Both the position numbers and the translations under genes were made by a program. DNA of 64,000 nucleotides from Phycisphaerae bacterium. GTDB taxonomy: Bacteria; Planctomycetota; Phycisphaerae; UBA1845; Fen-1342. The stretch covers positions 64,001 through 128,000 of the forward strand of contig JASFQK010000005.1 in assembly GCA_050115495.1 (NCBI GenBank), written 5' to 3'. Each line of letters starts with the position of its first letter. Position 1 is the stretch's first letter. Shown in pieces: positions 166 through 28,408 of this stretch. A model generated the notes under the pieces. That model worked only from the letters and a program-made list of their open reading frames with translations. It was not told where the DNA came from and searched no databases.

Positions 166-882
166 ATGAACCGTACTCTCCGAACGACCGTCATTGCCAC
201 CATGACACTGCTGTTACTGACGCCGCCCTTGCTAGCGGCGGTGATCGTCTTTGACCCGACTAACTTCGGCGTCAACCTGGAACAGGTGGCCCACCACCTC
301 GAAGTGATCTCCCGGCTCGATCGCCAAATCCGCAACCAGGCCCGCATGCTGGAGAACTGGCAGTTCACGCACCTAGGCCAGCTCCTTGCGTCGATGGAGC
401 GAATTCGCGGCACGGTCGAGGGCGTCGCTGCCGTCGATCTTCTCGGCCTGTATCCCATCGACTCCGGTGCATACGCCGATCGTGATGCCAACGCCATGCA
501 GGAACTCCGTCGGCAACGATTGGAGTCACACCGCGCTGCCGTGCTTCAAGCCCGCACCGCCCAGAACCAGGTCGTCGGCGAGATGCCCGGCGCTCAGAGC
601 CGCGTGCGCGACTACCTCGAACACTCGCGCGTCGCCCCCGGACAGACTGCCGTCCTGCAGGCCAGCAACGAGACAATCGCCACTCTCGCCGCGCAATTGC
701 AGGACCTGCAAGCGTTGGAACTCGCCGAGGCCCGTGTCGAACTGGAAACCGAAGCACAGCATCAAGCGGAGGCTGCGTTCCACCGCCAGCGTTGCGCGTG
801 GCTCATGCGTGACTGGTCCGCTGACGACATGTCCACGTCTGCGCCACAGCGCCCAATCCAGTCACCGTTTGGGAATCAATAG
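166..882 (+). CDS. trbJ: P-type conjugative transfer protein TrbJ (VirB5-like)
   Basis: Signal peptide followed by IVFDPTN; GQTAVLQASNE motif; GAGGAG RBS; directly upstream of trbL. Confidence 0.85.
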   Translation: MNRTLRTTVIATMTLLLLTPPLLAAVIVFDPTNFGVNLEQVAHHLEVISRLDRQIRNQARMLENWQFTHLGQLLASMERIRGTVEGVAAVDLLGLYPIDSGAYADRDANAMQELRRQRLESHRAAVLQARTAQNQVVGEMPGAQSRVRDYLEHSRVAPGQTAVLQASNETIATLAAQLQDLQALELAEARVELETEAQHQAEAAFHRQRCAWLMRDWSADDMSTSAPQRPIQSPFGNQ

Positions 883-908
883 GGCACGAGTTCGGACGAG
901 GATTAGCG

Positions 909-1886
909 ATGAGCATCATCAACGAGACATTGCAGCAGTACCTCGACGCGATCAACTCCGGCTTTGGGTTCATCGGCGGCGACGTGCGCTGGCTGTTCAA
1001 CATCCTCGTCTTGCTAAACATCGTTGTGGCTGCGCTCTTCTGGGCGTTCAGTGAGGATCAGATCCTCGTTCCGCTGATTCGCAAAATCCTCTACATCGGC
1101 ATCTTCGCGTGGATCGTAGAGAATTGGGTCGAGCTCACCAACATTCTGGCCCAGACCTTCATGCTCCTGGGCATCAAGGCCGGCGGCGGGCACGTCGATC
1201 ACGATATCCTGCTCAATCCAGGCGACATCGCCGAACGCGGACTCACGACAATTACGCCGATGATCCAGGCCATTCGCGATCTATCGGGGCCGGTAGCCTT
1301 CTTCGAAAACTTCGCCGAAATCCTGCTGCTGACGCTTGCCACTCTAGCGGTCATCGCGGCCTTCTTCCTGATCGCGATTCAGGCAGCCATGGCCATTCTG
1401 ACATTCAAGCTGGGTTCGCTTGCCGCCTTCGTTCTACTCCCGTTCAGCCTCATCACGCATACCGCGTTCATGGCCGAGCGGCCGTTGGGTTGGGTCGTGA
1501 CCGCCGGTGTGCGTCTGATGTTGCTCACGCTGGTCGTTGGTCTTGGCGAGGCGATTTTCGCTCGCCTGGAGATTACCCCCGAGCAACTCACAATTCGCAC
1601 CGCACTGGACATCGCACTCGGGGCCATTGTCCTGATGGTGCTCGCGTTGACCTCTTCACGCCTCGCGAGCGACCTCGCCACCGGCACACCCCGTCTTGGC
1701 GCCCTGGACGCGGGCATTGCGCTCGGCGGCGTTGCAGTCACCGCCACGTATGCGACGCGCAAAGTCCTGGCTGGCGCCGGACACGTCGCATCCGGCGCGC
1801 GCCTCGCCGCTGCCAAGGCCGCTTCGGGGATATCGGGAGCAGCGAAGTCGTTCCGCGCAAACTCAAAGGACAAGAGCGGATCATGA
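909..1886 (+). CDS. trbL: Conjugative transfer protein TrbL (VirB6-like)
   Basis: INSGFGFIGGDV N-terminus, RKILYIGIFAWI, FKLGSLA, AFMAER motifs; multiple TM helices. Confidence 0.92.
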   Translation: MSIINETLQQYLDAINSGFGFIGGDVRWLFNILVLLNIVVAALFWAFSEDQILVPLIRKILYIGIFAWIVENWVELTNILAQTFMLLGIKAGGGHVDHDILLNPGDIAERGLTTITPMIQAIRDLSGPVAFFENFAEILLLTLATLAVIAAFFLIAIQAAMAILTFKLGSLAAFVLLPFSLITHTAFMAERPLGWVVTAGVRLMLLTLVVGLGEAIFARLEITPEQLTIRTALDIALGAIVLMVLALTSSRLASDLATGTPRLGALDAGIALGGVAVTATYATRKVLAGAGHVASGARLAAAKAASGISGAAKSFRANSKDKSGS

Positions 1887-1902
1887 TGGAGGAATCGACC
1901 CA

Positions 1903-2685
1903 ATGAGTTTCCCGAAACAAACCACGACCTATGGACCCCGTCCCGCACATGACACGACCGCGTCGCCGTACGATCGGGCCAAGCACGAATGGGACGAGCG
2001 CATCGGCTCGACTCGCGTGCAGGCCTTCCACTGGCGGCTCATCGCGTTTGTGTCGCTCGTTGGCATGCTCGGACTTGGCGTCACGCTCGCGTTTGTCACC
2101 GTCCGCAAGGACATCAAGACGTACGTTATCGAGATCGACCAACTCGGTAAGCCGGCTCGAATTACACTGGCCGGTGACTGCTACCGTCCCGATGCGGCCC
2201 ATGCCGCCTACTTCATCGGCCAGCTCGTGCGTTTGGTCCGCGCTCGCCCACTCGACCCCGTTGTCGTTCGCGACAACTGGAAATCAGCTTATGGATTCCT
2301 TGCCGGAGACGCCGTTCACACGATGAACGCGTATGCGGTCAGCGATCCACCGCTACGCAGCATCGAGGGACGACCGCTGACACGCACGGTGGCCATCACA
2401 AACGTGCTTCAGAAGAGCGCCGACACCTACCAAGTCCGTTGGCTGGAGACCGAATACGTCGGCGGAGTTCCGCAACGGCCCGAACAACATACGGGCCTTT
2501 TCCAGATCGAAGTCAAACCGCCGCGTACTGAAACAGACGTCTTCCGCAATCCGCTGGGCATGTACGTCGTTTCGTTCAGTTGGAGCCGGGAGTTCACCGA
2601 TGCCGTCGTCAGCGATACCCAACCGGCCTCAGTTCCCCAAGTACCGACCACTCAGGAGTCCGATCATGAAGTACACGAAAACTAG
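1903..2685 (+). CDS. trbF: Conjugative transfer protein TrbF (VirB8-like)
   Basis: SPYDRAKHEWDERIGSTRVQAFHWR, DPVVVRDNWKSAY, NPLGMYV; start moved to ATG 1903 after GGAGG. Confidence 0.93.
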   Translation: MSFPKQTTTYGPRPAHDTTASPYDRAKHEWDERIGSTRVQAFHWRLIAFVSLVGMLGLGVTLAFVTVRKDIKTYVIEIDQLGKPARITLAGDCYRPDAAHAAYFIGQLVRLVRARPLDPVVVRDNWKSAYGFLAGDAVHTMNAYAVSDPPLRSIEGRPLTRTVAITNVLQKSADTYQVRWLETEYVGGVPQRPEQHTGLFQIEVKPPRTETDVFRNPLGMYVVSFSWSREFTDAVVSDTQPASVPQVPTTQESDHEVHEN

Positions 2686-3751
2686 CGGTCTGCTGGTGCT
2701 CATACTGCTGCTTCCTTGCAGCGGCTGTTTTCTGGCACGGCCCACCGACGGATTGGTCGTCTATCGCCGGCCATGGCAAATGATTGATTCCTCGCCCGTT
2801 GCGCGGCCGCCACGCCAACCACCGGATGTTCCGACAGCTTCAGACACATCACAAAACGCTGCCACCGCGACGGGCACTACGAAGCGTCGTGTCATTGGGC
2901 CCAACACTGACCGGCAGGATGTAACCCCCGCCGAAGCCGTGGAAGCCGCTCGTGAAGACGCCACGCAACAGCCGACACCCGAGGGATTCATCGATGCCGT
3001 ACAGGTCTACGACTACGAACCCGGGGCAGTATACGAAGTGCTCACGGCACCCGGATTCGTCACCGTGCTCCGCCTGCGCCCCGGCGAACAAGTGCAGAAT
3101 TTGGCCGCAGGCGATACGAGCCGCTGGCTGATCGATACTGTCGCAGCCGGCGTCGTAGATCCGCAGGCCGTGCTCTCGGACGATCTGTTGATCAAAACCG
3201 ATCGGCAGCCGGACACGAGACTCTCCGTGCTCATCAAACCACGTCGGCCCGCACTACAGACGAATCTCGTCGTCACCACCTCCGAGCGCACGTATCTAAT
3301 CGACCTGAAGAGCGTGGAAACCACTGCGTACCACTCCGTGGTTGAATGGACTTACCCACACGCGCCAACGAACTCGCCGCCCGTTGCCCCCTCGGCTACA
3401 CGCACCTCGGTCGATAGCGACACGCGTAATTACGCCTATCTCATCAAGGTTCCGCACGACCACGTGCCGCGCTGGACACCTGTGTGCGTGTTTGACGACG
3501 GCCACCGCGTGTACGTGCGTTTCCCCGACCACATCAACGACGTCCGCCGCCCGCCACTCTTCATTGTGGACCCGGATGGCGCCGTGCGGCTGGTCAACTA
3601 TCACGTCGAGGACCGCAGCTACGTCGTCCATGAGCTGTTCGACCGCGCCGAGCTGCGCCTTGGTGCCGAACGCGTCATCATTGATCGCGTCAAACCCAAA
3701 CGTCCGAGCTTGCTTGGCGCTGTCGCGGATTTAATCGGTATCGGGGACTAG
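2666..3751 (+). CDS. trbG: Conjugative transfer protein TrbG (VirB9-like), possible lipoprotein
   Basis: AVQVYDYEPGAVY, AAGDTSRW, TNLVVTTSERTY, FDDG, LVNY, LFDRAELRLG; N-terminal CSGC lipobox-like; ATG 2666 after AGGAG. Confidence 0.92.
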   Translation: MKYTKTSGLLVLILLLPCSGCFLARPTDGLVVYRRPWQMIDSSPVARPPRQPPDVPTASDTSQNAATATGTTKRRVIGPNTDRQDVTPAEAVEAAREDATQQPTPEGFIDAVQVYDYEPGAVYEVLTAPGFVTVLRLRPGEQVQNLAAGDTSRWLIDTVAAGVVDPQAVLSDDLLIKTDRQPDTRLSVLIKPRRPALQTNLVVTTSERTYLIDLKSVETTAYHSVVEWTYPHAPTNSPPVAPSATRTSVDSDTRNYAYLIKVPHDHVPRWTPVCVFDDGHRVYVRFPDHINDVRRPPLFIVDPDGAVRLVNYHVEDRSYVVHELFDRAELRLGAERVIIDRVKPKRPSLLGAVADLIGIGD

Positions 3752-3758
3752 GTGAACC

Positions 3759-4955
3759 ATGGACACGAAACCTGATCCGACAACAAGGCGCCCAGTAGAC
3801 GAAGTGCTGCGCGCGTATCCACCTCTTCCACGCGTTCGCCGGCTCAAACCCCGCGCCGTCGCACTCATTCTCGGCGCGCTGGCCCTGCTTTTCTGCGGGC
3901 GGATGACCGTCAAGCTCTTTGATCACCAAGTCGAATCCGACGACCAATTCAGCGGCACTCGGCTGCGTGCGACGGACGACATGCTGCAACGCGGCCCGAT
4001 CGGCCAGCTTCCGACAGACTATTCGTTCATTCCGCCGGAACCGCCGCCACCCGAGCCGGTTGTTGAGCTGCCGGCACACGAAACCGTGGAGGAACCGCCG
4101 GAGTTGAGCGCTGAGCAACGCCGCCGCCTTGAGGCCTTGCGCCAGGAAATGGAAAACGCGCTGGATTCGCCCATCTGCTTCGCCGGCACACGCATTGCAC
4201 AACCAGTCTCACAACAACCAACGATCGGAATGCCGTTTCAACGGGACGAAGCGTTTCCTGACATGGGCGATGTCGCGTCCGATCAGCGTCCGCGCAGTGA
4301 TGCGCACAACCGGGCATTCCTGCGTGAGGTCGCCAACGTTAAGACTCGTGTGGACAGTGCATTGGAGTTGCCATGTTCACCGTATGAGTTGAAAGCTGGC
4401 GCCATCATCCCGGCCGCGCTGGTCACCGCCATAAACAGCGACCTGCCCGGTGATGTAATCGGACAGGTTACTGCGAACGTGTACGACTCGGTCACCGGCC
4501 GCCATCTTCTCGTCCCGCAGGGCACACGCATGATCGGCCGCTACAACAGCGAAGTCCTCAACGGGCAGAACCGCGTGCTCATCGCCTGGCAACGACTCAT
4601 TTTCCCGAACGGTAGCTCGATCATCCTGGAGGCCATGCCCGGAACGGATGCGGCGGGAGTGTCCGGCATGGCCGACCGTGTTGATTATCATGGCGCTCAG
4701 CTTGCCGGCGCCACGCTACTCTCCACGCTCGTCGCGCTCGGCGGTAACTTCGCCGCGGACGTGAACCGCGAACAACAGGAACTCGCCATCGTTGCCAACA
4801 CGGTCGCCGAGCAGGCATCACGCGTGGCACAACGAATCATCGATCGCGAACTCGACATCAAGCCGACGATACTCATCCGCGCCGGACTACCGCTCAACGT
4901 CCTGGTGAATCGCGACCTTGAGCTTGCGCCATACGCACCGCGCGGCTGTCAGTGA
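3759..4955 (+). CDS. trbI: Conjugative transfer protein TrbI (VirB10-like)
   Basis: SPYELKAGAIIPAALVTAINSDLPG, VYDSVTG, PTILIRAG motifs. Confidence 0.95.
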   Translation: MDTKPDPTTRRPVDEVLRAYPPLPRVRRLKPRAVALILGALALLFCGRMTVKLFDHQVESDDQFSGTRLRATDDMLQRGPIGQLPTDYSFIPPEPPPPEPVVELPAHETVEEPPELSAEQRRRLEALRQEMENALDSPICFAGTRIAQPVSQQPTIGMPFQRDEAFPDMGDVASDQRPRSDAHNRAFLREVANVKTRVDSALELPCSPYELKAGAIIPAALVTAINSDLPGDVIGQVTANVYDSVTGRHLLVPQGTRMIGRYNSEVLNGQNRVLIAWQRLIFPNGSSIILEAMPGTDAAGVSGMADRVDYHGAQLAGATLLSTLVALGGNFAADVNREQQELAIVANTVAEQASRVAQRIIDRELDIKPTILIRAGLPLNVLVNRDLELAPYAPRGCQ

Positions 4956-4982
4956 CTCGCAGCCCCAATCGGAGGAAAGGAC

Positions 4983-5285
4983 ATGAAAGCAGACATCGCC
5001 TTACGTCCGTGTCATATCACGGAGACCACACGCTTCACCGTCGAGGCCGACTACGAGTTGACCGAAGCGTTGCACCGTTACCAAGCGTACTATCGCGAGG
5101 CCTACGGTCACGCTGTTACAGAAGCGGACTTGTTGCGCGCCATGGCCAGGCAGTTCATAGCCGACGACAAGGACTTCCAGGGATTCGGCCGCAAGCAGCG
5201 ACGTTCCACTCGGAGACGGTCCACCGCAGGCAAAGGCGATGGCGTCCCGGGCGACAAACTCGCCTTTGAGCAGGCGACGAAGTAG
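4983..5285 (+). CDS. DUF2274-family small protein
   Basis: Position right after trbI; LHRYQAYYREAYG...LLRAMARQFIADDKDF pattern typical of DUF2274. Confidence 0.7.
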   Translation: MKADIALRPCHITETTRFTVEADYELTEALHRYQAYYREAYGHAVTEADLLRAMARQFIADDKDFQGFGRKQRRSTRRRSTAGKGDGVPGDKLAFEQATK

Positions 5286-5294
5286 GAGTCTCTC

Positions 5295-5639
5295 ATGCAC
5301 GACACGTCGAAGAGGCAACACCTATGCCGACCCAGCGCCGAGGGTGACCGTGCTTCGACGGTTGCGGCTTCTGCATCCCCTGGCTGGCACAATCACGCGG
5401 CCAGTCTCTCCGACCTGCCTGATCCGTGCACTTCCGCCCAACTAGCCGCCGTCCTGGGCAAATCCCCAAAGACCGTCGTCGACTGGTGCCAGGAGCGCGA
5501 TTACACTCTGATCCCGTGTTTCCGGCTCGGGAATCGGTGGTACCACCGTGTGCCCGAGTTGGTTCGATGGCTCAATGGGGTCAAGAGTGGTCGCATCGAG
5601 TTTCGCCGCAAACCGCGCATCTCCCGGCCAAGGAGGTGA
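5295..5639 (+). CDS. Excisionase-like helix-turn-helix protein
   Basis: TSAQLAAVLGKSPKTVVDWC...IPCFRLGNRW winged-HTH pattern; directly upstream of the integrase. Confidence 0.75.
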   Translation: MHDTSKRQHLCRPSAEGDRASTVAASASPGWHNHAASLSDLPDPCTSAQLAAVLGKSPKTVVDWCQERDYTLIPCFRLGNRWYHRVPELVRWLNGVKSGRIEFRRKPRISRPRR

Positions 5640-5642
5640 TGC

Positions 5643-6929
5643 ATGGCGAGAAAGGAGGACCGGACAAACCGGTGGATCAAATCGGAACGCGTTGGCGAGG
5701 TCACGCTGTTTCGCACATCGCGGAGTCCGTACTGGCAGATGTACTGGACCGAATCGGTCAGCGGCCAGCATGGTCCCCGCATCAAACAGCAGCAGCGTAG
5801 CACTCGCGAGACGGATATCGGTCTCGCTCGGCAAGTGGCTAGTCGGCAGAGCGAAGCGCTCTACCGGCGAAAGCACTATCCCGAGCGTGAACGAGAGCGG
5901 AAACGGACGCCGCTACGGCCCATCGTCGAGGATTTCGTACAGTACCTTGAGACGCTCGGCCGCAGTCATGGGCATATCAGCAAGCTCAAGGGCCGGCTGC
6001 ACTGCCTGGCAGATTGGTTGGAGAGGCGACAGGTGATCAACGTGCAGGACGTTAGTGCGACACTGCTACGCGACTTTCAGTCGCATCTACGCAGCGTCCG
6101 CAATGTAGGTCCTGCCACAGTAAACCACTACATCGCGGGCATTCACAACTTCTATGGGTACGCAATCTACAAGCGGAAGCTGCTCGATGGCCCGAATCCC
6201 GCGGCCACTGGAAGGCAGGCCGAATTGGATAAGCTGCCCACGCGAAGTGTGCCACCGCCGACCATCTATCCGGACCAAGTGAACGCCGTCATCCAAGTCG
6301 CTCGCAAGCACAACGACACGCAGATCGCCAACCTGATCGCGTTCGTGTGCGAGGGCGGTTTCCGCTTCCAGGAGATGCAGTTCCTTCAGGTCGGCGACAT
6401 CAACGTAGCCGAACGGGAGATCATCCTGGAGGTGAAGCGACCGGACCCGCATCGCGTGCGGGCCGAACTACGCCGGACTTGTTTGACGGAAGATGGCCTG
6501 TGGATCCCCAAGACGCCGGCGGCTCGGCGACCGATTCACATCACGGATCGGCTCGCGCGTGTAATCGGCGCGATGGGACTTGGAGACGCGTCGGACTGGG
6601 TCTTCATGAACCAAGCCGGCAACCAGATCTCCGAGAACAAGACCCTCAGCTTGCTTAAGCGCTACGCACTCGAAGCAAAGGTGCTTGTGGACGCACACCC
6701 GAAGACGGGCAAGCCGTGGTCGCTGCTCAAGTGGCACTGGCTACGGCATTACCACCGCACACGGGCACACGTGAGCCGAATCCGTCGCGAAGTATCGAAG
6801 CTGGCAATGGGCCACGCCGCCGACCCAATCCACGACCATTACCGTGGTCTGGACCGGTACGCGTTCCATGAGGAGTATGAGAAGTTTGACAGTGGGATCG
6901 ACGATGCGCTATTCGCCCGCGAAACCTGA
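5643..6929 (+). CDS. Tyrosine recombinase / integrase
   Basis: Catalytic R (GFRFQE), K (PKT), HxxR (HWLRH), H (MGH), Y (HDHY); SAM-like region ATVNHY. Confidence 0.93.
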   Translation: MARKEDRTNRWIKSERVGEVTLFRTSRSPYWQMYWTESVSGQHGPRIKQQQRSTRETDIGLARQVASRQSEALYRRKHYPERERERKRTPLRPIVEDFVQYLETLGRSHGHISKLKGRLHCLADWLERRQVINVQDVSATLLRDFQSHLRSVRNVGPATVNHYIAGIHNFYGYAIYKRKLLDGPNPAATGRQAELDKLPTRSVPPPTIYPDQVNAVIQVARKHNDTQIANLIAFVCEGGFRFQEMQFLQVGDINVAEREIILEVKRPDPHRVRAELRRTCLTEDGLWIPKTPAARRPIHITDRLARVIGAMGLGDASDWVFMNQAGNQISENKTLSLLKRYALEAKVLVDAHPKTGKPWSLLKWHWLRHYHRTRAHVSRIRREVSKLAMGHAADPIHDHYRGLDRYAFHEEYEKFDSGIDDALFARET

Positions 6930-20140: not shown

Positions 20141-20560
20141 CTACGCTACCGCATTCAGCACGAACGCCGCTGCCAGCGCCACTGCCGACAGAATGACGCC
20201 CGCGACCGCCTGCCGGCGCCGCTGCGCCCGTCGGTGCCGCCCCCAGTCCGCGACCAAGTCGGCGACGAATGCCGCCGGCACGGCCCCCGCCGGATGCAGC
20301 ACCTCCACGCGGACGGCGCCGGCCGGCCACTCGTCCACGGCCAGTGTGCCGCTCCATAGTCCGCCGAGCAGCACGTCCGTTTGCGTGAAGATGACGCGGC
20401 TGGCGCTTTTCTCGCGAGCGGCGCGATCCACTTCATCCACGTCGCGTGGTGCGCACCAGCGCACGGCTGCCCCGGCCGGCACCAGTTCCTCGACGCTCGC
20501 CGCCAAAGCGTCGTTTTGCCCACCCACGATAATGATCGGCGTATCGTCGCGCTCGTTCAT
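20141..20560 (-). CDS. Hypothetical protein with C-terminal TM helix
   Basis: ATG overlaps the stop of the upstream CPBP gene (translational coupling); C-terminal hydrophobic helix. Confidence 0.6.
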   Translation of the reverse strand: MNERDDTPIIIVGGQNDALAASVEELVPAGAAVRWCAPRDVDEVDRAAREKSASRVIFTQTDVLLGGLWSGTLAVDEWPAGAVRVEVLHPAGAVPAAFVADLVADWGRHRRAQRRRQAVAGVILSAVALAAAFVLNAVA

Positions 20561-21354
20561 GGCGTGACCCCATAAGCAAGCCACATGTTGATCGTCAGCA
20601 GGCCCAGGGCGATGACGCCAACGACGCCCGCGTACGGAAAGATGCTCGCCCCCACCAGCCAACCCGGCCCCGTGTAGCGAATCAGCGGCCGAACCGTCAT
20701 GAGCACCAGCACGCCGCCGCCGTGCAGCCCCATCGACAGCCACAGCGAACCGCCCGTCGCCACAAACGCCACGCACAGCAGCAGGCCCAGCGCGACGTGC
20801 CCCGGAAACGTCCAGTAGCGCTTCACGCTCCGCACGTAGTGCGCACCGGCGAACACCAGCGCTCCGATCCCGACGGCGACGGCGGTCGGGCAGGAATCAA
20901 TCAATTCGCCCAGCAGCATGGCCCGAAACAGCAGCTCTTCCACCAGCGCCGCCAACACGGCCGTTCCCGGCACGCCGGCCAGCCGCCGCAACAGCCGCCC
21001 GGCACCATGCCGCATACGGAACTCCACGTTGCCCGTCAGCAGCCACGCCAAGTACAGCAGCGCCAGGTACAGCACGGCCGCCGCCGCCCCGTGGGCCAGC
21101 TCCGCCGGTCGTTCACCCAGCGGCAGAAACCTGGCGTAATACGTCACCGGCGACGCACCACGCAACAGCGGGTACACCAGCACCGCCGCGGCCAGCACAA
21201 CGTTGGCGATCACGCGGTTGGCCGTTCGCAGCCAGCGCGGCAGATCATTCCCGCCGATCTTCCCGCGCAGCGGCAGCCCCGCCCGCCACAGCAGCAGCGT
21301 CTGCCCGAGCCACATCGCCGCCGGCACCAGTACGAGTAGACCCAGCGCCCACAT
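20557..21354 (-). CDS. CPBP family intramembrane glutamic endopeptidase (Abi/CAAX)
   Basis: EELLFR, FAGAH and SLWLSMGLH motifs; multiple TM helices. Confidence 0.88.
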   Translation of the reverse strand: MWALGLLVLVPAAMWLGQTLLLWRAGLPLRGKIGGNDLPRWLRTANRVIANVVLAAAVLVYPLLRGASPVTYYARFLPLGERPAELAHGAAAAVLYLALLYLAWLLTGNVEFRMRHGAGRLLRRLAGVPGTAVLAALVEELLFRAMLLGELIDSCPTAVAVGIGALVFAGAHYVRSVKRYWTFPGHVALGLLLCVAFVATGGSLWLSMGLHGGGVLVLMTVRPLIRYTGPGWLVGASIFPYAGVVGVIALGLLTINMWLAYGVTP

Positions 21355-21358
21355 GCCG

Positions 21359-22390
21359 CTACTCCGTCCTCTCGCCGAGCGGCTGCGCGTAGCGCGCGTC
21401 GCCCCGCAGCAGCCGCGTCCAGCGTTTGTCCCCCCACAAGTACCATAGCGCCGGCTGCTCCTGCACGAACCGAGCGAACTCGTCCGCGAACCACTGCATA
21501 CAGCGGTGCACGATGTCCCGCCGCTCATCTCCGCCGCGGTCGCCGGTCGTGTGCGGACACGGTCCGCGCAGCACCAGCCTATGTCGCGAGCCCTCCATCT
21601 CCGCCAGCAGCATGTATAGCGACCGGCCCGTGCGCAGCGCCAGCCATGCCGCTCCCGCCGGCAGGTAGATCTCCCGTCCGCACCAGCGCACCGCCGTTCC
21701 GGACTCGCGCTTCTGCGGCAGGTCCGGCGTGATGAACAGCGTACGGCCGGCGCGCAGCGCATTCACCATGCGCCCCAGCCGTCCGAGCGAACCGGAAGCC
21801 CCGGCCGGCTCGGAGATCCAGTCCACGCCGCTGGCCTGGTACCATCGCTGCTTGGCTGTCTGCCGGCTCGCATCCTTCGAATAGCGCAGGTACACCGTCA
21901 GCGGCATCTCGCTGTTGAGCCGCGTCAGGTGGAGCAGGTAATCGTTGATGTGCGGGCCGACGAGAACCACGCCCTGCCCGCCCTGCGATGAGGCGCACAG
22001 CTCAGACACGGCGTCATCGAGCGTGATCCGCTCGGCGGCCAGCGCTGCCAGTACCTCGGTCCCGCCCGCCGGCGGCCGCCGCCCCGCACAGCGCAAGGCG
22101 TGCAGCGCCCCCGAGAAATGCCGGCCCGCCTGGGCGAAGTACGTGTGATGCACTGCTGGCGTGTACACCCCCACCGCCCGCATGTTCTCGGCCACCTGCC
22201 GGGCCAGCACCGGTAGCCACGCCCCGCACGTCCCCAGCGCCCGCCCGACGCACTCCACGCCGCCCGCCGTCAGCCGCGGCGCCGCCGCCACGGCGAGGTC
22301 CGTCGCTCGTCGGGTCAGCCAGTGCCGCAGCGCTCGCCGCAATATGCGTCTCCCATACCAACCACGCGGCCGCCGCGCGGTCCATATCAT
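21359..22390 (-). CDS. Lysophospholipid/lipid A acyltransferase family protein (LpxL/HtrB-like)
   Basis: VLVGPH, LFITPD, YLPAGAAWLALRTG, PALWYLWGDKRW. Confidence 0.7.
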   Translation of the reverse strand: MIWTARRPRGWYGRRILRRALRHWLTRRATDLAVAAAPRLTAGGVECVGRALGTCGAWLPVLARQVAENMRAVGVYTPAVHHTYFAQAGRHFSGALHALRCAGRRPPAGGTEVLAALAAERITLDDAVSELCASSQGGQGVVLVGPHINDYLLHLTRLNSEMPLTVYLRYSKDASRQTAKQRWYQASGVDWISEPAGASGSLGRLGRMVNALRAGRTLFITPDLPQKRESGTAVRWCGREIYLPAGAAWLALRTGRSLYMLLAEMEGSRHRLVLRGPCPHTTGDRGGDERRDIVHRCMQWFADEFARFVQEQPALWYLWGDKRWTRLLRGDARYAQPLGERTE

Positions 22391-22818: not shown

Positions 22819-24249
22819 CTAGCTTCCGCCGACCTGCGGTTGGATTGGCCCGCCGCCCCCGCCGGGCGCCGGACCGCCCAGCGCCGGCGGCCCGCCACCG
22901 CCCACCGGCTGCGTCACGATGCGACGAACGATGAACACGCGGCGTGCGGCGGGCTGTCGGGCCAGGGCGGCCGCCCGCTCAATCAGCACGATACAGAACA
23001 GCATCATCGACGCGTTGAAGTTCGTCGGGCTGGCCAGCTTGCTCTCCACGAGACCGGTCGCAGCCAGTGCCAGGAATCCGCCGAAGACCCCTCGCATCGC
23101 GTCCTTCAACACCGGATCCGCGTGCTTGCTGGCCAGCACGCGCACGCACTGCCACGCGGCGCGGGACATGGCCGCCAGCCACAATCCCAGGGCAACCGCC
23201 CCGCCGTCGTACCACAGCGACAGGTATGAGTTGTGCAACCCGCCCGTGAAGTACCGGTGCGAGAAATACTCGCTCATCCCGGCGCCGTGCCCAATGATCG
23301 GGTTCCGCATGATCGCGCCTAATGCCACCATCCAGCGGGTCATGCGACCGGTCGTCCCGCTCTCCTGGTACCACAGGCGTTTCACGATGATGGCATGCGT
23401 GACCGGGTCGACCATGCTCAGCACGATTGCCGTCGCCGCGACCACCAGCCCTATCAGCACTGCCGCCCCCAGCAGACGCTTCAGCCCGAGGCGAAACAGC
23501 AGCAGCGGTATCATGCCGATCATCGCCCCGAATAACCCGCCGCGCTGCGCCGTGCGAATCAGCATCGGCAGCATGATGATGGCGCCAGCCCCACAGGTGT
23601 ACTTGTACAGCTTGCGGTTACCTGGCTTCATCAACCCCCACAGGACAAACGAAGCCACACCGGCCGAAACCACGCCCAGCGACTGCGGATCCGTCACGCC
23701 GGCGAACTTGCCGCCACCCGTGGCCGCCTGCCCGCCGGCCGCACTACCGAAAACCAGGTTGACTGCGATCCAGACGACACCGACCAGGGCGACGACACCG
23801 ATGGCCCGTTGCAGACGCGCCGTGTCGGTCACATAGCGCAGCGTCGCCCCGGTCAACCCCACGGACAGCAGAACGAAGCCTATGCAGATTTGCAGGCTCC
23901 AACTGACGTTCTCTGCAAACGGCACCCATAGGAACATGTACAGGCCGTAACAGAGCATCAGCGCCGGGCCCAGGCCGACGCGCCGCATGCCGTACAACCC
24001 CAGCGGGAACAAGGCGAACACGGCTCCGTACCGCAACAGGGTCAGCACGCCCTGCGTCGGGCCGCCCATCAGCGAGAACGTTTGCCCCACCAGCAGCAGC
24101 ATTAGCAGCGGGCGATACGCCCGCATCACGATCAGCGCCACGCCGATCGCCACCGCCAGCGACAGCACCATGATCAGCAGGCCGCTGTACTCCGACTCCA
24201 TGACCTGCTGCAGACGTTCCAGAAGTGGATTTTGGTCGCCGCGTTGCAT
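22819..24249 (-). CDS. O-antigen ligase / Wzy polymerase family membrane protein
   Basis: Many TM helices; TAQRGG, GR..RW, PIIGHGAG, LHNSYL motifs. Confidence 0.85.
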   Translation of the reverse strand: MQRGDQNPLLERLQQVMESEYSGLLIMVLSLAVAIGVALIVMRAYRPLLMLLLVGQTFSLMGGPTQGVLTLLRYGAVFALFPLGLYGMRRVGLGPALMLCYGLYMFLWVPFAENVSWSLQICIGFVLLSVGLTGATLRYVTDTARLQRAIGVVALVGVVWIAVNLVFGSAAGGQAATGGGKFAGVTDPQSLGVVSAGVASFVLWGLMKPGNRKLYKYTCGAGAIIMLPMLIRTAQRGGLFGAMIGMIPLLLFRLGLKRLLGAAVLIGLVVAATAIVLSMVDPVTHAIIVKRLWYQESGTTGRMTRWMVALGAIMRNPIIGHGAGMSEYFSHRYFTGGLHNSYLSLWYDGGAVALGLWLAAMSRAAWQCVRVLASKHADPVLKDAMRGVFGGFLALAATGLVESKLASPTNFNASMMLFCIVLIERAAALARQPAARRVFIVRRIVTQPVGGGGPPALGGPAPGGGGGPIQPQVGGS

Positions 24250-24287
24250 GTATGCTCAGCTCTGCGGTTGCTGTCAGGTTCCTTCGT

Positions 24288-25238
24288 TCAGCGGTGCTGA
24301 AACCGCACGATCCTCTCGTCCACGATCTGCCCCTCCCGAATGACGGTCGCCTGCTCCAGCACCGGGTTCACGCGTCCGCCGGCCAGGTCGTCGGCATACT
24401 CGGCCACTACCTCGCTGATCGACTGTGTCGCTGTCCGGTGATATAGCGCCGGGGCGTGATCCACGCAATAGTGCAGCACGCCGTCGCGGACATACACCGG
24501 GTCATCAATCGTCGTCGGCCGCGAGCTCTCCACGCCCATGCCTTCGTCGCAACTGATGTCGATGATCAGACTGCCCGGCTTCATCCGCCGCAAGTCCTCG
24601 ATATACACGAGGTGATCCGTCCGAAACACGTCCCACAGCACGCCGTTGACGACGACGTCGTACTGCTCGATCTCCTCGCGCAGCAGCGGCGACGTCTTGC
24701 GGTCGTAGACCGTAACCAGGCAGCCCATTCGCTCAAGCGCCCGCGTCGCCCCGCGGGCGACGTTTCCACGCCCGATAACTGCGGCCTGCGCATGGTACGG
24801 CACGCGCCCCCACTTCAGCATCGCGTGCGCCACGGCCGCCTCGCCGGATAGTTCATTATTGCGCCAGAAGCAATGCCGCCCGCGCTTGAACATGTCCTCC
24901 CAGGCGATCGCCGTCATCCGATGCTTCACCAGCAGGTCGGTGATCTCCCGGCCCTGGACGGCGTGCATCCAGCCAAACAGGGTCCGCCCCGTCTGGAAGT
25001 ACTCATCGGTGAGCATCGGCTTGGGGCAGCAGATGACGGAGCAGGCCACAACTTCTTCCCGATTAACAACTTGCGCTCCGGCCTCTCGATAGGCCTTGTC
25101 GTCGCACCCCATCGGCGCGCCGTAACCGGTCTCGACCAGCATGTCGCCTGGCCGGTTCAGTCGGCGAACGTCCTCCGGCGCGAGCGCCCGCCGAAGTTCA
25201 TTCTCCTTCCGGGGAATCGGAAAGCCTACTTTCGCCAT
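24288..25238 (-). CDS. N5-(carboxyethyl)ornithine synthase-like protein (AlaDH/PNT family)
   Basis: GFPIPRKENELRRAL, ETGYG, GWMHAVQ, AIAWEDM, RNNELSGEA, GRGNVARG, IIDISCD, VDHAP. Confidence 0.8.
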   Translation of the reverse strand: MAKVGFPIPRKENELRRALAPEDVRRLNRPGDMLVETGYGAPMGCDDKAYREAGAQVVNREEVVACSVICCPKPMLTDEYFQTGRTLFGWMHAVQGREITDLLVKHRMTAIAWEDMFKRGRHCFWRNNELSGEAAVAHAMLKWGRVPYHAQAAVIGRGNVARGATRALERMGCLVTVYDRKTSPLLREEIEQYDVVVNGVLWDVFRTDHLVYIEDLRRMKPGSLIIDISCDEGMGVESSRPTTIDDPVYVRDGVLHYCVDHAPALYHRTATQSISEVVAEYADDLAGGRVNPVLEQATVIREGQIVDERIVRFQHR

Positions 25239-25292
25239 CGCAGCCATTCTCCAGAGTATTTATCGGCGCCGCACGCCTCGCCACCGGAAGGC

Positions 25293-26942
25293 TTATTGGC
25301 CGGACCCTTCGCCGCCGACCGGGGCTTGGAACGTGGCCAGACCCAGCCGCTCGAGCGCCAGAAACGGGATGATTGTATTGCGGCCGTTGTACAGTTTTCG
25401 GAACTGGGTCTTCGGCATGATGCCGTAGTAGGCCATGTAGTGGTCATCATACAACGTATAACGGCCGGCGAGCTTGCACATCGCCCGATAAAACGGATTC
25501 GTGTACAGCCCGTGCTGCACCGCCCAATTGAGCCACCGCTTGACTAATGTCGGCTTGGCCTCCATCGGGTGCGTCTCCGCGGCTCCCGGTCGGCGGGACC
25601 ACATCTCCTGGGCGTGCGCCTCGTACAACAGTTCACGATCGGGGCTGTAGGTGCGGTAGACGACGGGAACGCGACTCCAAAAATCGAGAAGCTCCAGGTC
25701 CATCAGCGGCAGCCACCAGTCGTACCCCCAGAACTCGTAAACGCGCACGGCGTTGATGTTCAGCTTGGTGTTACGCTCCTGCCAGACCCACTTCTCGTAA
25801 GCGCGCTCCACCTCTTCAAACGTGTCCAGGCGCGGGGCTTCGCAGCAGGCCAGGACACGCTCCACGAGCTGCGGACGCAGGCGTTTCGCCCGAGCGTCCC
25901 AATCCGTCAGGCGGTAGTGCATGCCCACGATCGCCTCGGCGAGGACGTGCGCTCCGCTCTGCCCGGGCAGGAGCTTCAGGTAGCGGCTGCGCAATCTCGT
26001 GCCGGCGTGTCCGGGAACGAAAATCGTGTCGTCCGGCAACGTGCCGCGACGCTTCAACTCCCACACCGCCGGCCAATCCTGGAGGTGTTGCAGCGAGCTC
26101 ATCCGATCCGTGTACCGGTAGTACGCCTCGCGCTCCGGGCTGTGGAACCAGCGCCCCCAGGCCTCGTTGCTGTACGGCACGAAATGCCACGGGATGCCCA
26201 GCGACTCGGCGATCTGGCGGCTGACCTCCGACTCCTGGTTGCCCGGCTTGCCGTAGCTGAAGGCCATCACGCGGTCGTAACCGAGCCGGTTCAGCATGAG
26301 GCAGATCGACCGTGAATCCAGCCCGGCGCTGAGCGGCACACACACGTATCGCCCGTTCGCCCAAGTCAGCATCCGCTGCACGGCCTGCTCGAGGACTTCC
26401 TCGTGCAGCCGCTTCAGTTCCGCCTCCGTGGCGTCGAGTGGGTTTTCGTACAGCCGGCGGTAGTACCGGGCCATCCGGACGGTCACGCCCTGGTCGCTCG
26501 TCGCGAGGAGCAGGGTCTCGCCAGCCTGGAGGTTCTTGACGTTCGGGTAGAGCGTGTCCGGGCCAAGCACGTAGCCCACGAGCAGCAGTTCGGCGGCGGC
26601 CACTTCGTCGAAGGCTTTGTCGCCAACGCGGGCCCGCACCCACTCGGCATCATCGCTGATGTATACGCGGTCGGCGCATTGTCCGTAGAAGAGCGGGCAA
26701 CTGCGCGTGTGATCGACGGCCGCCCAGACTTCGCCCTCGCGCTCGACGATGACAGAGTGGAAGCCATTCAACCGTTTCAGGGTGGCCACGAAATCGTCCG
26801 CGGACTTCGTCGCCGCAAACACCTGCGGCAAGTCCGCCGCTTCCCGGGCACCATCCTTCCAGAATGCGCTGCCGCGAACGTGCGCGCCGCCTTCCGTCCG
26901 CCACAGGTGCGTGCTTCGGAGATGCACCTCGACGCCATTCAT
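25293..26942 (-). CDS. Asparagine synthetase-like ATP-dependent amide ligase lacking the N-terminal Cys
   Basis: VPLSAGLDSR PP-loop; AVDHTRSCPLFY; WQER; starts MNGVEV; ATG overlaps the wzx stop. Confidence 0.85.
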   Translation of the reverse strand: MNGVEVHLRSTHLWRTEGGAHVRGSAFWKDGAREAADLPQVFAATKSADDFVATLKRLNGFHSVIVEREGEVWAAVDHTRSCPLFYGQCADRVYISDDAEWVRARVGDKAFDEVAAAELLLVGYVLGPDTLYPNVKNLQAGETLLLATSDQGVTVRMARYYRRLYENPLDATEAELKRLHEEVLEQAVQRMLTWANGRYVCVPLSAGLDSRSICLMLNRLGYDRVMAFSYGKPGNQESEVSRQIAESLGIPWHFVPYSNEAWGRWFHSPEREAYYRYTDRMSSLQHLQDWPAVWELKRRGTLPDDTIFVPGHAGTRLRSRYLKLLPGQSGAHVLAEAIVGMHYRLTDWDARAKRLRPQLVERVLACCEAPRLDTFEEVERAYEKWVWQERNTKLNINAVRVYEFWGYDWWLPLMDLELLDFWSRVPVVYRTYSPDRELLYEAHAQEMWSRRPGAAETHPMEAKPTLVKRWLNWAVQHGLYTNPFYRAMCKLAGRYTLYDDHYMAYYGIMPKTQFRKLYNGRNTIIPFLALERLGLATFQAPVGGEGSGQ

Positions 26943-28408
26943 GCTCGCCGCTCCTTGCGCAATCGATGCGCCACGCCAACCGTGGCCCAGGTGCCGCTGA
27001 TCGCCAGGCCGACGGCGACCCAGATCGGCCCGCCCAGGAAGAGCTTGGCCGCCGCCGCCGGCAGAACGATGGGCAGCGTCGCCGCCAGGTTCCTGGCCAG
27101 GCGAACCAACCCCTCCCGCGGTTCGTTGCCGCTGATGCGCAGCAGCCACAGCATATACACGAACCACAGCGCCACGCTAACCGCGCCGAACAGCGCAATG
27201 GCCAGCAGCGGATCATCCCACAGACCGCCAACCAACAGGGCCCCGACCCGTCCCGCCAACAGGCACGCCTGGAAAATCAGGTCCCCCTGCTGCCGTTCGA
27301 GCACGTAGACCAGCGACGACAGCGGGGCCACCGTGAACACCACGAGCAGCCACGGACAGAGGAACTGGGCGTACACGCCCGCCATCATCCACTTCGGCCC
27401 GAACACGAGAGAGAAGACCTCCGGCGCGGTGATCATCAGCAGCGCCGCGTAGGGCGTACCGACGCCCGCCAGCCCGGTGAAGACGCGCAGCGTGATCCCC
27501 GCCGTCTGGCCCTGGCGGCTGGCCTCCGCGGCGTTGGAGAAGAACACCTGGCTGATCGCCTGGCCGATGAAGTTGAGCGGCGTCCACAACACCTGACTGG
27601 TCAGCACGTACAGCCCCACCGGGGCGGTGCCGAAGAACGCCGACAACAGCATGACCGGCAACTGCGCGCTGCACGTGTTCAGCAGGGCGGACCACGACGT
27701 GAACATCGGGAAGCGGCGATAACGCCGGGCTTCCTCCAGCACACGGGGCACCGAAACCTGCTTCAAACAGGCGAAATGGTCTCTCCAGAAAATACGGATC
27801 AGGGCGGCACCGCCCCCACCCCAGCGAACCACGTGCCCGAGCAGCAGCCCGAGCGGCCCGAGATACAGCAACCCCAGGCCGATCTGCGTGGTAACGGCCC
27901 CTACAGCCTGTGACAGCTTGCTTTGCGCAATCGCCGCGAAGGCCTTCTTGCGGACGCTCCAGAGCTGGAACGCCCCGTAGATACCTCCGACCAGCGTGTT
28001 GAAGGGCACGAGCCACAAGTACGGCCGCAGACGTGGAGCATCGAGCCACAACAGGACAACGTCCCCGAGCACCCACAGGACCACGGCGATCAGCGTGCTC
28101 ATGCCCACGACCAACGCCAGCACCAGCGCCAGCACGTTCGCGGCGCTGCCGTCCTCCTCCGGCGCCGGGATCGCCGACTCGTAACGCCAACTGATGACCA
28201 CCAGCCCCATCGATACCAGTGAGATGTACACGCCCAACACGCCGAAGTCGGGCGGCAGATACAGACGCGTGATGATCGGCGAGGCCGCCAGCACGAGCGC
28301 ATAGCCGACGCCGGTGCCGCCACCCACGACGGCCACGCTCCGAGCGAACGGCCCCATCGGCACGACGCGCTCGACGAGGCTCCAGAGCTTGCGCAGCCAT
28401 GCGGTCAT
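26939..28408 (-). CDS. Oligosaccharide flippase (Wzx)
   Basis: SPIITRLYLPPDFG, RYESAI, YRRFP motifs; many TM helices. Confidence 0.9.
   Translation of the reverse strand: MTAWLRKLWSLVERVVPMGPFARSVAVVGGGTGVGYALVLAASPIITRLYLPPDFGVLGVYISLVSMGLVVISWRYESAIPAPEEDGSAANVLALVLALVVGMSTLIAVVLWVLGDVVLLWLDAPRLRPYLWLVPFNTLVGGIYGAFQLWSVRKKAFAAIAQSKLSQAVGAVTTQIGLGLLYLGPLGLLLGHVVRWGGGGAALIRIFWRDHFACLKQVSVPRVLEEARRYRRFPMFTSWSALLNTCSAQLPVMLLSAFFGTAPVGLYVLTSQVLWTPLNFIGQAISQVFFSNAAEASRQGQTAGITLRVFTGLAGVGTPYAALLMITAPEVFSLVFGPKWMMAGVYAQFLCPWLLVVFTVAPLSSLVYVLERQQGDLIFQACLLAGRVGALLVGGLWDDPLLAIALFGAVSVALWFVYMLWLLRISGNEPREGLVRLARNLAATLPIVLPAAAAKLFLGGPIWVAVGLAISGTWATVGVAHRLRKERRA

What the first reader, a model, noticed from the sequence alone, without database searches (positions are those of the whole stretch)
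22819..28408. Polysaccharide locus that may decorate glycan with an opine (carboxyethyl-amino acid amide)
Seen: a compact operon wzx - asparagine-synthetase-like - CEOS-like - wzy/waaL, with no glycosyltransferase. The synthetase keeps the PP-loop (SAGLDSR) but starts MNGVEV, lacking the Cys1 needed for glutaminase activity. Established: N5-(carboxyethyl)ornithine synthase reductively condenses pyruvate with ornithine or lysine, and carboxyethyl-lysine amides of uronic acids occur in some Proteus/Providencia O-antigens. Inference: the CEOS-like enzyme makes the opine and the Cys-less ligase amidates a uronic acid with it. This two-gene tailoring module would give CEOS homologs a cell-surface role in a planctomycete.
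Basis: partly seen in the sequence, partly recalled or inferred. Interest (0 to 1): 0.75.

Follow-up and report, generated by a model that had tools for sequence, protein, structure and literature searches.

The report
Sugar-amidating enzyme beside opine synthase
A four-gene surface-sugar operon joins a flippase and sugar-acid amidating enzyme of a kind known from Porphyromonas to an enzyme that probably makes a pyruvate-derived ("opine") amino acid; whether the first hangs the opine on the sugar or only adds ammonia is open and easy to test.

Summary
The four genes are as described: wzx, AsnB-like without Cys1 but with the PP-loop, CEOS-like, Wzy_C; no glycosyltransferase. The CEOS-like enzyme is not a plain alanine dehydrogenase. 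Its relatives are glycan genes: 63 of 80 loci carry polysaccharide genes and 57 of 80 have an ATP-dependent ligase-family gene directly adjacent, of several unrelated folds. The scan noted this cassette before on other DNA (7 notes). This particular pair is not conserved: 0 of 80 loci either way, no overlap in 300 class relatives or 401 genomes of a Bacteroidales-centred sample, and the sister paralogue in this genome has no CEOS neighbour. The missing Cys1 proves little. The subfamily normally sits behind the same wzx in Wbp/Vim loci, like P. gingivalis PGN_1234 (WbpS), which also lacks Cys1 (published primer) yet makes a primary uronamide in vivo (PMC7468200); full-length homology to PGN_1234 was not tested. 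Best reading (0.45): a WbpS-like module with a separately acquired opine synthase.

The parts
26939..28408 (-). Wzx/MOP flippase, 489 aa, of the subfamily that travels with the AsnB-like gene (PorS-like by context)
   Evidence: PF13440 E 1e-22; same subfamily in 51 of 80 loci of the AsnB-like family, directly upstream in 43; two paralogues of 65-70% identity on contig C3
25293..26942 (-). Cys1-less asparagine-synthetase-like adenylating amide synthetase, 549 aa, with shortened N-terminal domain; WbpS/PGN_1234-like by context and build
   Evidence: PF00733 37 bits; TIGR01536 53 bits against cutoff 267, match starts at profile position 115 = residue 53; best PDB match of the family profile is CarA, E 6e-7; family traits
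26310..26330 (-). PP-loop S205-A-G-L-D-S-R211 (ATP pyrophosphate binding)
   Evidence: read from the sequence; S-x-G-x-D-S in 85 of 92 homologues
24288..25247 (-). CEOS-like NAD(P)H-dependent reductive aminase (AlaDH/PNT fold), 319 aa (316 from the third Met)
   Evidence: PF05222+PF01262; TIGR00518 134 bits against cutoff 392; close homologues named N5-(carboxyethyl)ornithine synthase by their sources; residues; nearest Atlas cluster 'putative CEOS', TM 0.97
22819..24249 (-). Wzy_C (O-antigen polymerase/ligase family) membrane protein, 476 aa; polymerase versus ligase not resolved
   Evidence: PF04932 E 3e-14; no paralogue in the genome and no match in the other loci fetched

Best explanation
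The operon is a glycan-tailoring unit joined from two modules. Module 1 (wzx + AsnB-like) is a PorS/WbpS-like pair. The AsnB-like enzyme uses ATP to adenylate the C6 carboxylate of a uronic acid, most likely the 2,3-diacetamido-uronic acid of the Wbp pathway (candidate genes lie elsewhere in the genome), and amidates it with free ammonia to the primary amide, having no glutaminase. Module 2 is the CEOS-like enzyme, which reductively condenses pyruvate with an amino-acid amine (Orn or Lys) using NADPH to give an N-(1-carboxyethyl) amino acid. Shown: genes, motifs, family membership by profile, neighbourhood counts. Inferred: all substrates and products, orthology to PGN_1234, co-transcription.
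For: PGN_1234 lies directly behind wbpE-wzx and its knockout turns the uronamide into the acid (PMC7468200 passages). Its published cloning primer reads M-K-I-V-S-D-F-T, with no Cys1, and the primer ending before E71 reads W-A-V-V-F-Q-R-A at residues 63-70 (my hand translation of supplement file 9). That fits the family columns 62-68 (F/Y/W, A, V, V, x, Q, R), whereas the same strand is at residue 123 in the genome's canonical AsnB. The family lies directly behind the same wzx in 43 of 80 loci, with a DUF7033 gene in 24 (one representative matched NCBIfam VimE, E 3e-51, below cutoff), a GNAT in 21 and a UDP-sugar dehydrogenase in 22. It occurs without CEOS in 80 of 80 loci, in 41 of 41 positive genomes of 401 in the Bacteroidales-centred sample and in 4 of 4 positive class relatives of 300. 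The sister paralogue (59%, tree support 1.0) sits in wzx-AsnB-wzx with no CEOS. The window protein departs from 3 of 63 conserved columns, the family median. wbpB/D/E-like genes lie on the same contig, C5:170362-173074.
Against: CEOS-like genes in glycan loci nearly always have a ligase-family gene with them (58 of 63), mostly adjacent (52 of 63), and here the AsnB-like gene is the only candidate in the operon and holds the usual upstream slot. The genome has no TupA- or ST-type ATP-grasp and only weak RimK-like matches (24-32 bits). Other Cys-less AsnB types hold the same slot in 6 of 80 loci from three lineages. The window protein has local changes between the invariant K393 and N397 (F394L, I395N, S398A) not shared by its paralogue; 6 class-level departures against a median of 3, but 21% of members reach 6. 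The full PGN_1234 sequence could not be compared, and one characterised member does not fix the nucleophile of a whole family.
Confidence: 0.45

Rival explanations
1. One reading: the CEOS-like enzyme makes N5-(1-carboxyethyl)ornithine or N6-(1-carboxyethyl)lysine, and the Cys-less AsnB-like enzyme adenylates the uronate C6 carboxylate and joins it to the opine's alpha-amine. After duplication of wzx-AsnB this copy was recruited as the opine ligase, a further non-orthologous displacement in the ligase slot.
For: 57 of 80 CEOS-like loci have an adjacent ligase-family gene: TupA 23, CapK/ANL 15, ST-grasp 12, RimK-like 8, Cys-less AsnB types 6 (some loci have two). The five nearest CEOS relatives show ST-grasp, RimK-like, CapK and another AsnB type, with one locus cut at the contig end, so swaps are frequent (quick tree). 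Three Massilia loci have the same order wzx-AsnB(Cys-less)-CEOS with an AsnB subfamily only 18% alike by profile; 4 of the 5 loci with that subfamily hold no other ligase family. Opine and ornithine amides of uronic acids exist (P. rustigianii O14; T. medium diamino-mannuronic acid-ornithine; PMC10609480 passages). CarA and beta-lactam synthetase, matched, are Cys1-less members of the fold that acylate amino-acid amines (recalled).
Against: The pair recurs nowhere among the loci and genomes examined; no fusion found (weak test); the closest characterised counterpart makes a primary amide; no significant pocket remodelling by sequence; the ligase role of the Massilia/Nitrospirota AsnB type is itself only inferred, and neither gene was found in 220 further genomes of that family.
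Confidence: 0.38
2. Reversed polarity: the AsnB-like enzyme activates a carboxylate of the opine and N-acylates a free amino sugar (for example the 3-amino Wbp intermediate), giving an alanopine-type N-acyl decoration.
For: An alanopine N-acyl group on Qui4N is known in P. alcalifaciens O35. The genome has several DegT-type sugar aminotransferases. CapK/ANL partners in 25 of 80 CEOS loci are of a family that activates small acids.
Against: The counterpart PGN_1234 acts on the sugar carboxylate; in Wbp/Vim loci N-acylation is assigned to VimA-type enzymes, and no match to the family's GNAT or DUF7033 neighbours was found in this genome.
Confidence: 0.09
3. The dehydrogenase is not an opine synthase: it is an alanine or other amino-acid dehydrogenase that supplies a plain amino acid, or releases ammonia for the glutaminase-less amidase next door.
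For: It keeps the AlaDH catalytic set (K14, E17, R19, K76, H95, E117, D234); RefSeq names some relatives 'alanine dehydrogenase'; no direct comparison with the characterised Lactococcus enzyme was possible.
Against: Far below the AlaDH cutoff, 26% identical to the genome's own 370-aa AlaDH on C49; pocket residues differ family-wide (A-V-Q 96-98, N130-N131, D263-H264 against F-A-A, M-S, A-N), and the dinucleotide motif is GxGxxA with Arg, NADP-type by general knowledge. The AsnB-like family needs no such partner elsewhere.
Confidence: 0.08

Closest known systems
PGN_1234 (WbpS) with PorS (Wzx) of the Porphyromonas gingivalis Wbp/Vim pathway (PMC7468200)
   Same: AsnB-like gene directly behind a wzx; no Cys1; short N-terminal domain with the G-x-aromatic-A-V-V strand near residue 62; about 550 aa; Wbp and VimE-like neighbours in relatives; wbpB/D/E-like genes in this genome.
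   Different: Here wbp genes are about 80 kb away, no vimA/vimE-like match was found, and a CEOS-like gene and a Wzy_C gene follow. Full-length homology and activity untested.
N5-(1-carboxyethyl)-L-ornithine synthase (CEOS, EC 1.5.1.24) of Lactococcus lactis (recalled; no paper on it could be read)
   Same: AlaDH/PNT fold, about 316 aa, catalytic R/K/H/D set, NADP-type motif; close homologues carry this name in JGI and NCBI.
   Different: The Lactococcus enzyme makes a free metabolite of unknown role (recalled); this clade sits mostly in glycan loci beside ligases. Amine substrate and stereochemistry unknown; no direct alignment with the Lactococcus sequence.
Cj1438 C-terminal amidoligase of Campylobacter jejuni (PMC11800397 passages)
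   Same: ATP-dependent amide bond at C6 of a uronic acid with an amine made by neighbouring genes.
   Different: Yields ADP, uses serinol-phosphate, and acts after the sugar is in the chain (UDP-GlcA is no substrate). The window enzyme is an AsnB-fold adenylating enzyme. That Cj1438C is TupA-like comes from an earlier scan note and was not confirmed in the passages read.
CarA carbapenam synthetase and beta-lactam synthetase (PDB 1q15, 1jgt)
   Same: AsnB fold without glutaminase function; best and a weaker PDB match of the family profile.
   Different: Intramolecular lactam formation in antibiotic pathways (recalled); remote similarity only (E 6e-7, 3e-3); no glycan context.

Membership tests
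Glutamine-hydrolysing asparagine synthetase B / class II amidotransferase | Catalytic Cys1 after Met removal and full Ntn domain | tested here: not met
   Starts MNGVEV; no in-frame Cys upstream; no HRGP/D motif in 211 of 211 family sequences; TIGR01536 53 bits against 267
Glutamine-hydrolysing asparagine synthetase B / class II amidotransferase | PP-loop SxGxDS synthetase domain | tested here: met
   S205-R211; PF00733 above cutoff
PGN_1234/WbpS-type uronamide synthetase | Directly downstream of a PorS-like wzx, Wbp genes at hand | tested here: met
   ATGA overlap with wzx; 43 of 80 family loci; wbpB/D/E-like trio on C5, by family and order only
PGN_1234/WbpS-type uronamide synthetase | No Cys1 and shortened N-terminal domain | tested here: met
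   Primer-derived peptides of PGN_1234 against family columns; rests on 16 residues
PGN_1234/WbpS-type uronamide synthetase | Full-length homology to PGN_1234 | tested here: inconclusive
   Family present in 41 of 401 genomes of the Bacteroidales-centred sample, often behind the same wzx, but no protein carrying the primer-derived peptides was found
PGN_1234/WbpS-type uronamide synthetase | Forms the primary amide of a diacetamido-uronic acid | not testable with these tools
   Needs assay or glycan structure
CEOS (EC 1.5.1.24) | AlaDH/PNT two-domain fold with the catalytic Arg, Lys, His, Asp | tested here: met
   (R19, K76, H95 in 80 of 80; D234 in 76 of 80; H95 lay inside a search pattern, so its count is circular)
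CEOS (EC 1.5.1.24) | Separate from alanine dehydrogenase in length, pocket and cofactor motif | tested here: met
CEOS (EC 1.5.1.24) | Close homology to the characterised Lactococcus lactis enzyme | not tested
   Sequence not obtained from any tool; only database names of homologues
CEOS (EC 1.5.1.24) | NADPH-dependent condensation of pyruvate with Orn/Lys | not testable with these tools
   Needs assay
Alanine dehydrogenase (TIGR00518) | Curated cutoff, about 370 aa, GxGxxG motif, AlaDH pocket | tested here: not met
   134.5 against 391.85 bits; 319 aa; GxGxxA
   0 of 80 and 0 of 80 loci; no overlap in 300 and 401 genomes
CEOS + interchangeable amide-ligase glycan cassette (earlier scan notes) | CEOS-like gene in a glycan locus next to an ATP-dependent acid-amine ligase | tested here: inconclusive
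   True for the family (52 of 63 glycan loci adjacent); here it holds only if the AsnB-like enzyme accepts the opine

The most novel reading that the evidence does not exclude
A duplicated WbpS-like, glutaminase-less AsnB enzyme has been recruited as the ligase that joins an opine amino acid to a diamino-uronic acid. AsnB-fold enzymes would then be a further interchangeable ligase class of the CEOS glycan cassette, recruited more than once (here, Massilia/Nitrospirota, a Pirellulales record), and the product a sugar amide not found in the papers searched.
Probability: 0.38. Interest if true: 0.7.

Novelty: new variant of a known kind. Interest (0 to 1): 0.45.

Why it matters
Carboxyethyl-lysine and alanopine decorations are known from O-antigen chemistry, but no paper in six searches tied them to genes. 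The library lacks most carbohydrate journals, so this is not proof of absence. The CEOS-plus-ligase pattern gives testable candidates, and the scan has noted it at least seven times before. This locus adds a clean two-paralogue experiment: one genome holds two sister AsnB-like enzymes, one beside the opine synthase and one not, so ammonia versus opine can be compared directly. It also gives a caution for annotation: a missing Cys1 in a glycan-locus AsnB does not imply an amino-acid ligase.

Tried and rejected
Alternative start exposing Cys1: rejected. Plain alanine dehydrogenase: unlikely. Conserved AsnB-CEOS pair: not found. An apparent AsnB-CEOS fusion in L050 was an ORF-calling artefact; a search for longer fused forms found none among 6906 candidates, a weak test. 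Testing whether the Massilia AsnB type is tied to CEOS was uninformative: 0 of 220 further genomes had either gene. Looking for the PGN_1234 orthologue among 30 + 17 fetched Bacteroidales-sample stretches found family members but none with the primer-derived peptides. My first ligase count (50 of 80) missed the ST-grasp family and one mis-started ORF and was replaced. Beta-lactam-type intramolecular cyclisation of the opine was considered from the CarA match and set aside because the family lives in glycan loci without CEOS. Viral contigs gave 1 locus, not informative. No structure model of my own was obtained, so pocket size was judged from sequence only; the Atlas comparison confirms the folds. 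The careful tree did not finish; the quick tree is used for the local clade only. Papers not held: the CEOS biochemistry papers, the ATP-grasp survey, the Proteus locus paper of 2010, the Methanococcus AglU paper and its review, and the first Cj1438 paper; supplements of PMC5560731 (Proteus clusters and structures) could not be read and may bear on whether the CEOS-glycan link is already in print.
Full report
Observation. The minus strand carries four adjacent genes: a flippase (28408-26939), an asparagine-synthetase-like protein P0002 (26942-25293), an AlaDH/PNT-fold protein P0003 (25247-24288) and a Wzy_C membrane protein (24249-22819). The flippase stop overlaps the P0002 start and the other gaps are 45 and 38 bp. 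There is no glycosyltransferase among them. P0002 keeps the PP-loop and has no Cys1; no upstream start can supply one. G+C dips to about 0.635-0.645 over 24-27 kb against 0.68-0.70 on both sides, and both enzyme genes are rare among class relatives (1 and 4 of 300), which fits an acquired glycan cassette.

P0003 is CEOS-like, not alanine dehydrogenase. It scores 134 bits against the AlaDH cutoff of 392 and is 26% identical to the genome's own AlaDH on C49. Close homologues (52-67%) are named N5-(carboxyethyl)ornithine synthase where a source names them, and the nearest Atlas cluster carries that name. It keeps the catalytic Arg, Lys, His and Asp but has family-wide pocket changes and a GxGxxA-Arg dinucleotide motif (residue roles and the NADP reading are recalled knowledge; the HAVQ and VDH columns were part of the search patterns, so their invariance is circular). 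I could not align it with the characterised Lactococcus enzyme, so the amine substrate is inferred.

The family is mostly a glycan-locus family with interchangeable ligases. Of the best 80 of 455 genome loci (71 clusters at 90%), 63 carry polysaccharide genes, 64 hold a ligase-family gene and 57 have one within 450 bp on the same strand: TupA ATP-grasp 23, CapK/PaaK-like adenylate-forming 15, sugar-transfer ATP-grasp 12, RimK-like ATP-grasp 8, Cys-less AsnB types 6. Labels rest on Pfam/NCBIfam scans of representatives; the CapK matches are below curated cutoffs and two RimK-like representatives had no Pfam match. As a control, the 80 P0002-family loci, 65 with glycan genes, hold ST-grasp in 4 and TupA, CapK or RimK-like in none; they are shorter (median 8 against 21 kb), so the contrast is overstated. 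An E. coli plasmid capsule cassette has an ATP-grasp-type gene, CEOS, wzx, an epimerase and a nucleotide-sugar dehydrogenase together. The five nearest relatives of P0003 show four different partner types (quick tree). The scan's earlier notes describe this cassette on seven other genomes; I had reached the pattern before reading them, and they are not counted as evidence.

The specific pair is not conserved. No P0002-family gene lies in the 80 CEOS loci and no CEOS gene in the best 80 of 381 P0002-family loci (62 clusters at 90%). At whole-genome level there is no overlap among 300 class relatives or in a 401-genome sample centred on a Bacteroidales genome, where 41 have the AsnB-like family (one of them weakly) and only the centre genome, which lacks it, has CEOS. 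In this genome the sister paralogue (59%) sits in wzx-AsnB-wzx on C3 without CEOS. The conserved unit is wzx + AsnB-like: same wzx subfamily in 51 of 80 loci, directly upstream in 43 (67 have more than 600 bp upstream), often with Wbp-type genes, a GNAT (21) and a DUF7033 gene (24), one representative of which matches VimE below cutoff. By a stricter test with this genome's own genes as queries, wbpB- or wbpD-like genes were in 12 of 80 loci, 10 of the 28 with at least 5 kb upstream.

That arrangement is in print. Veith et al. 2020 (PMC7468200; passages, supplement file 9 whole, file 4 legend, parts of 5, 7, 8, 10) found an asnB-like gene, PGN_1234, directly behind wbpE and wzx in P. gingivalis and showed by knockout and MS that it turns the diamino-glucuronic acid into the primary amide. 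It is only 17% identical to canonical WbpS. Its cloning primer begins M-K-I-V-S-D-F-T, without Cys1, and the primer ending before E71 gives W-A-V-V-F-Q-R-A at 63-70 (hand translation). This matches the commonest family residues at columns 63-65 and 67-68 with one residue of offset, while canonical AsnB has that strand at residue 123. The genome has wbpB/D/E-like genes about 80 kb away on the same contig and a UDP-sugar dehydrogenase on C14, so the likely sugar substrate can be made.

What keeps the coupled reading alive. CEOS-like genes in glycan loci lack a ligase in only 5 of 63 cases, three of them cut short by a contig end. Here P0002 is the only candidate in the operon, and the genome has no TupA or ST-grasp; the only strong alternative is a GT4-GT4-CapK-like fusion on C23 (274 bits). 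A different Cys-less AsnB subfamily (18% alike) holds the slot in three Massilia and two Nitrospirota loci, in Massilia in the same order wzx-AsnB-CEOS, and a third type does so in L003; these are about three independent events. P0002 has local changes beside the invariant K393 and N397 that its paralogue lacks, and Thr where 150 of 210 have Asp after the PGH motif, but its total departures are within the family range. Amides of uronic acids with carboxyethyl-lysine and with ornithine are known (PMC10609480 passages); a Methanococcus AsnB-like threonine transferase, AglU, is recalled but could not be read.

Verdict. Shown: anatomy, families, neighbourhood pattern, non-conservation of the pair. 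Inferred: chemistry. I put 0.45 on P0002 making a primary uronamide with the opine synthase unpartnered or served elsewhere, 0.38 on P0002 being the opine ligase, 0.09 on reversed polarity and 0.08 on P0003 not being an opine synthase; these are judgement, not computed. Both parts are of known kinds and the combination is a variant of a cassette that the scan has already noted. No paper linking CEOS to glycans turned up in searches of a library that lacks most subscription journals. Other papers seen, as passages only: PMC11800397, PMC8003790, PMC11407970, PMC5560731, PMC7685785, PMC3210612, PMC5131992.

Noticed in passing
G000:C3:14840-20121 (L169): Second copy of the module as wzx - AsnB-like - wzx, with no CEOS or wzy; flippases 65-70% and synthetase 59% identical to the window's.
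   Followed up: yes
G000:C5:170362-173074 (L235): Oxidoreductase, hexapeptide acetyltransferase and DegT aminotransferase in wbpB-wbpD-wbpE order, with glycosyltransferases nearby, about 80 kb from the window locus.
   Followed up: partly
G000:C23:23600-27325 (L237:4600-8325): 1242-aa fusion of two GT4 domains and a CapK/PaaK-like adenylate-forming domain inside a large exopolysaccharide locus; possible acyl or amide ligase.
   Followed up: partly
L050, L051, L066 (Massilia), L007, L012 (Nitrospirota): A separate Cys1-less AsnB subfamily directly upstream of CEOS-like genes; the better place to test whether an AsnB fold can ligate an opine.
   Followed up: partly
L172 (NZ_AP027746.1) and L180 (NZ_CP148570.1): E. 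coli capsule cassette with ATP-grasp-type gene + CEOS + wzx + epimerase + nucleotide-sugar dehydrogenase between IS91 copies on a plasmid; IS-riddled remnant on a chromosome; 5 of 5426 genomes match.
   Followed up: partly
L015, L021, L043, L070, L078-L080: CEOS-like genes of Clostridium and Bacillaceae without glycan or ligase neighbours form one clade (support 96), possibly the free-metabolite type.
   Followed up: no
L107, L135, L137: Loci with two or three paralogues of the AsnB-like family, hinting at different acceptors or nucleophiles within the family.
   Followed up: no
window 166-6926: Lower-GC stretch (about 0.61) with ORFs that look like conjugation and integrase genes; look recalled, not scanned.
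   Followed up: no
window 20560-22390 (-): Lipid A acyltransferase-like gene and CAAX-protease-like gene just downstream of the operon, behind a small lipoprotein-like gene on the other strand.
   Followed up: no
L181 (NZ_CP031306.1): A haloarchaeal relative of the AsnB-like protein (31%) lies outside any glycan locus.
   Followed up: no
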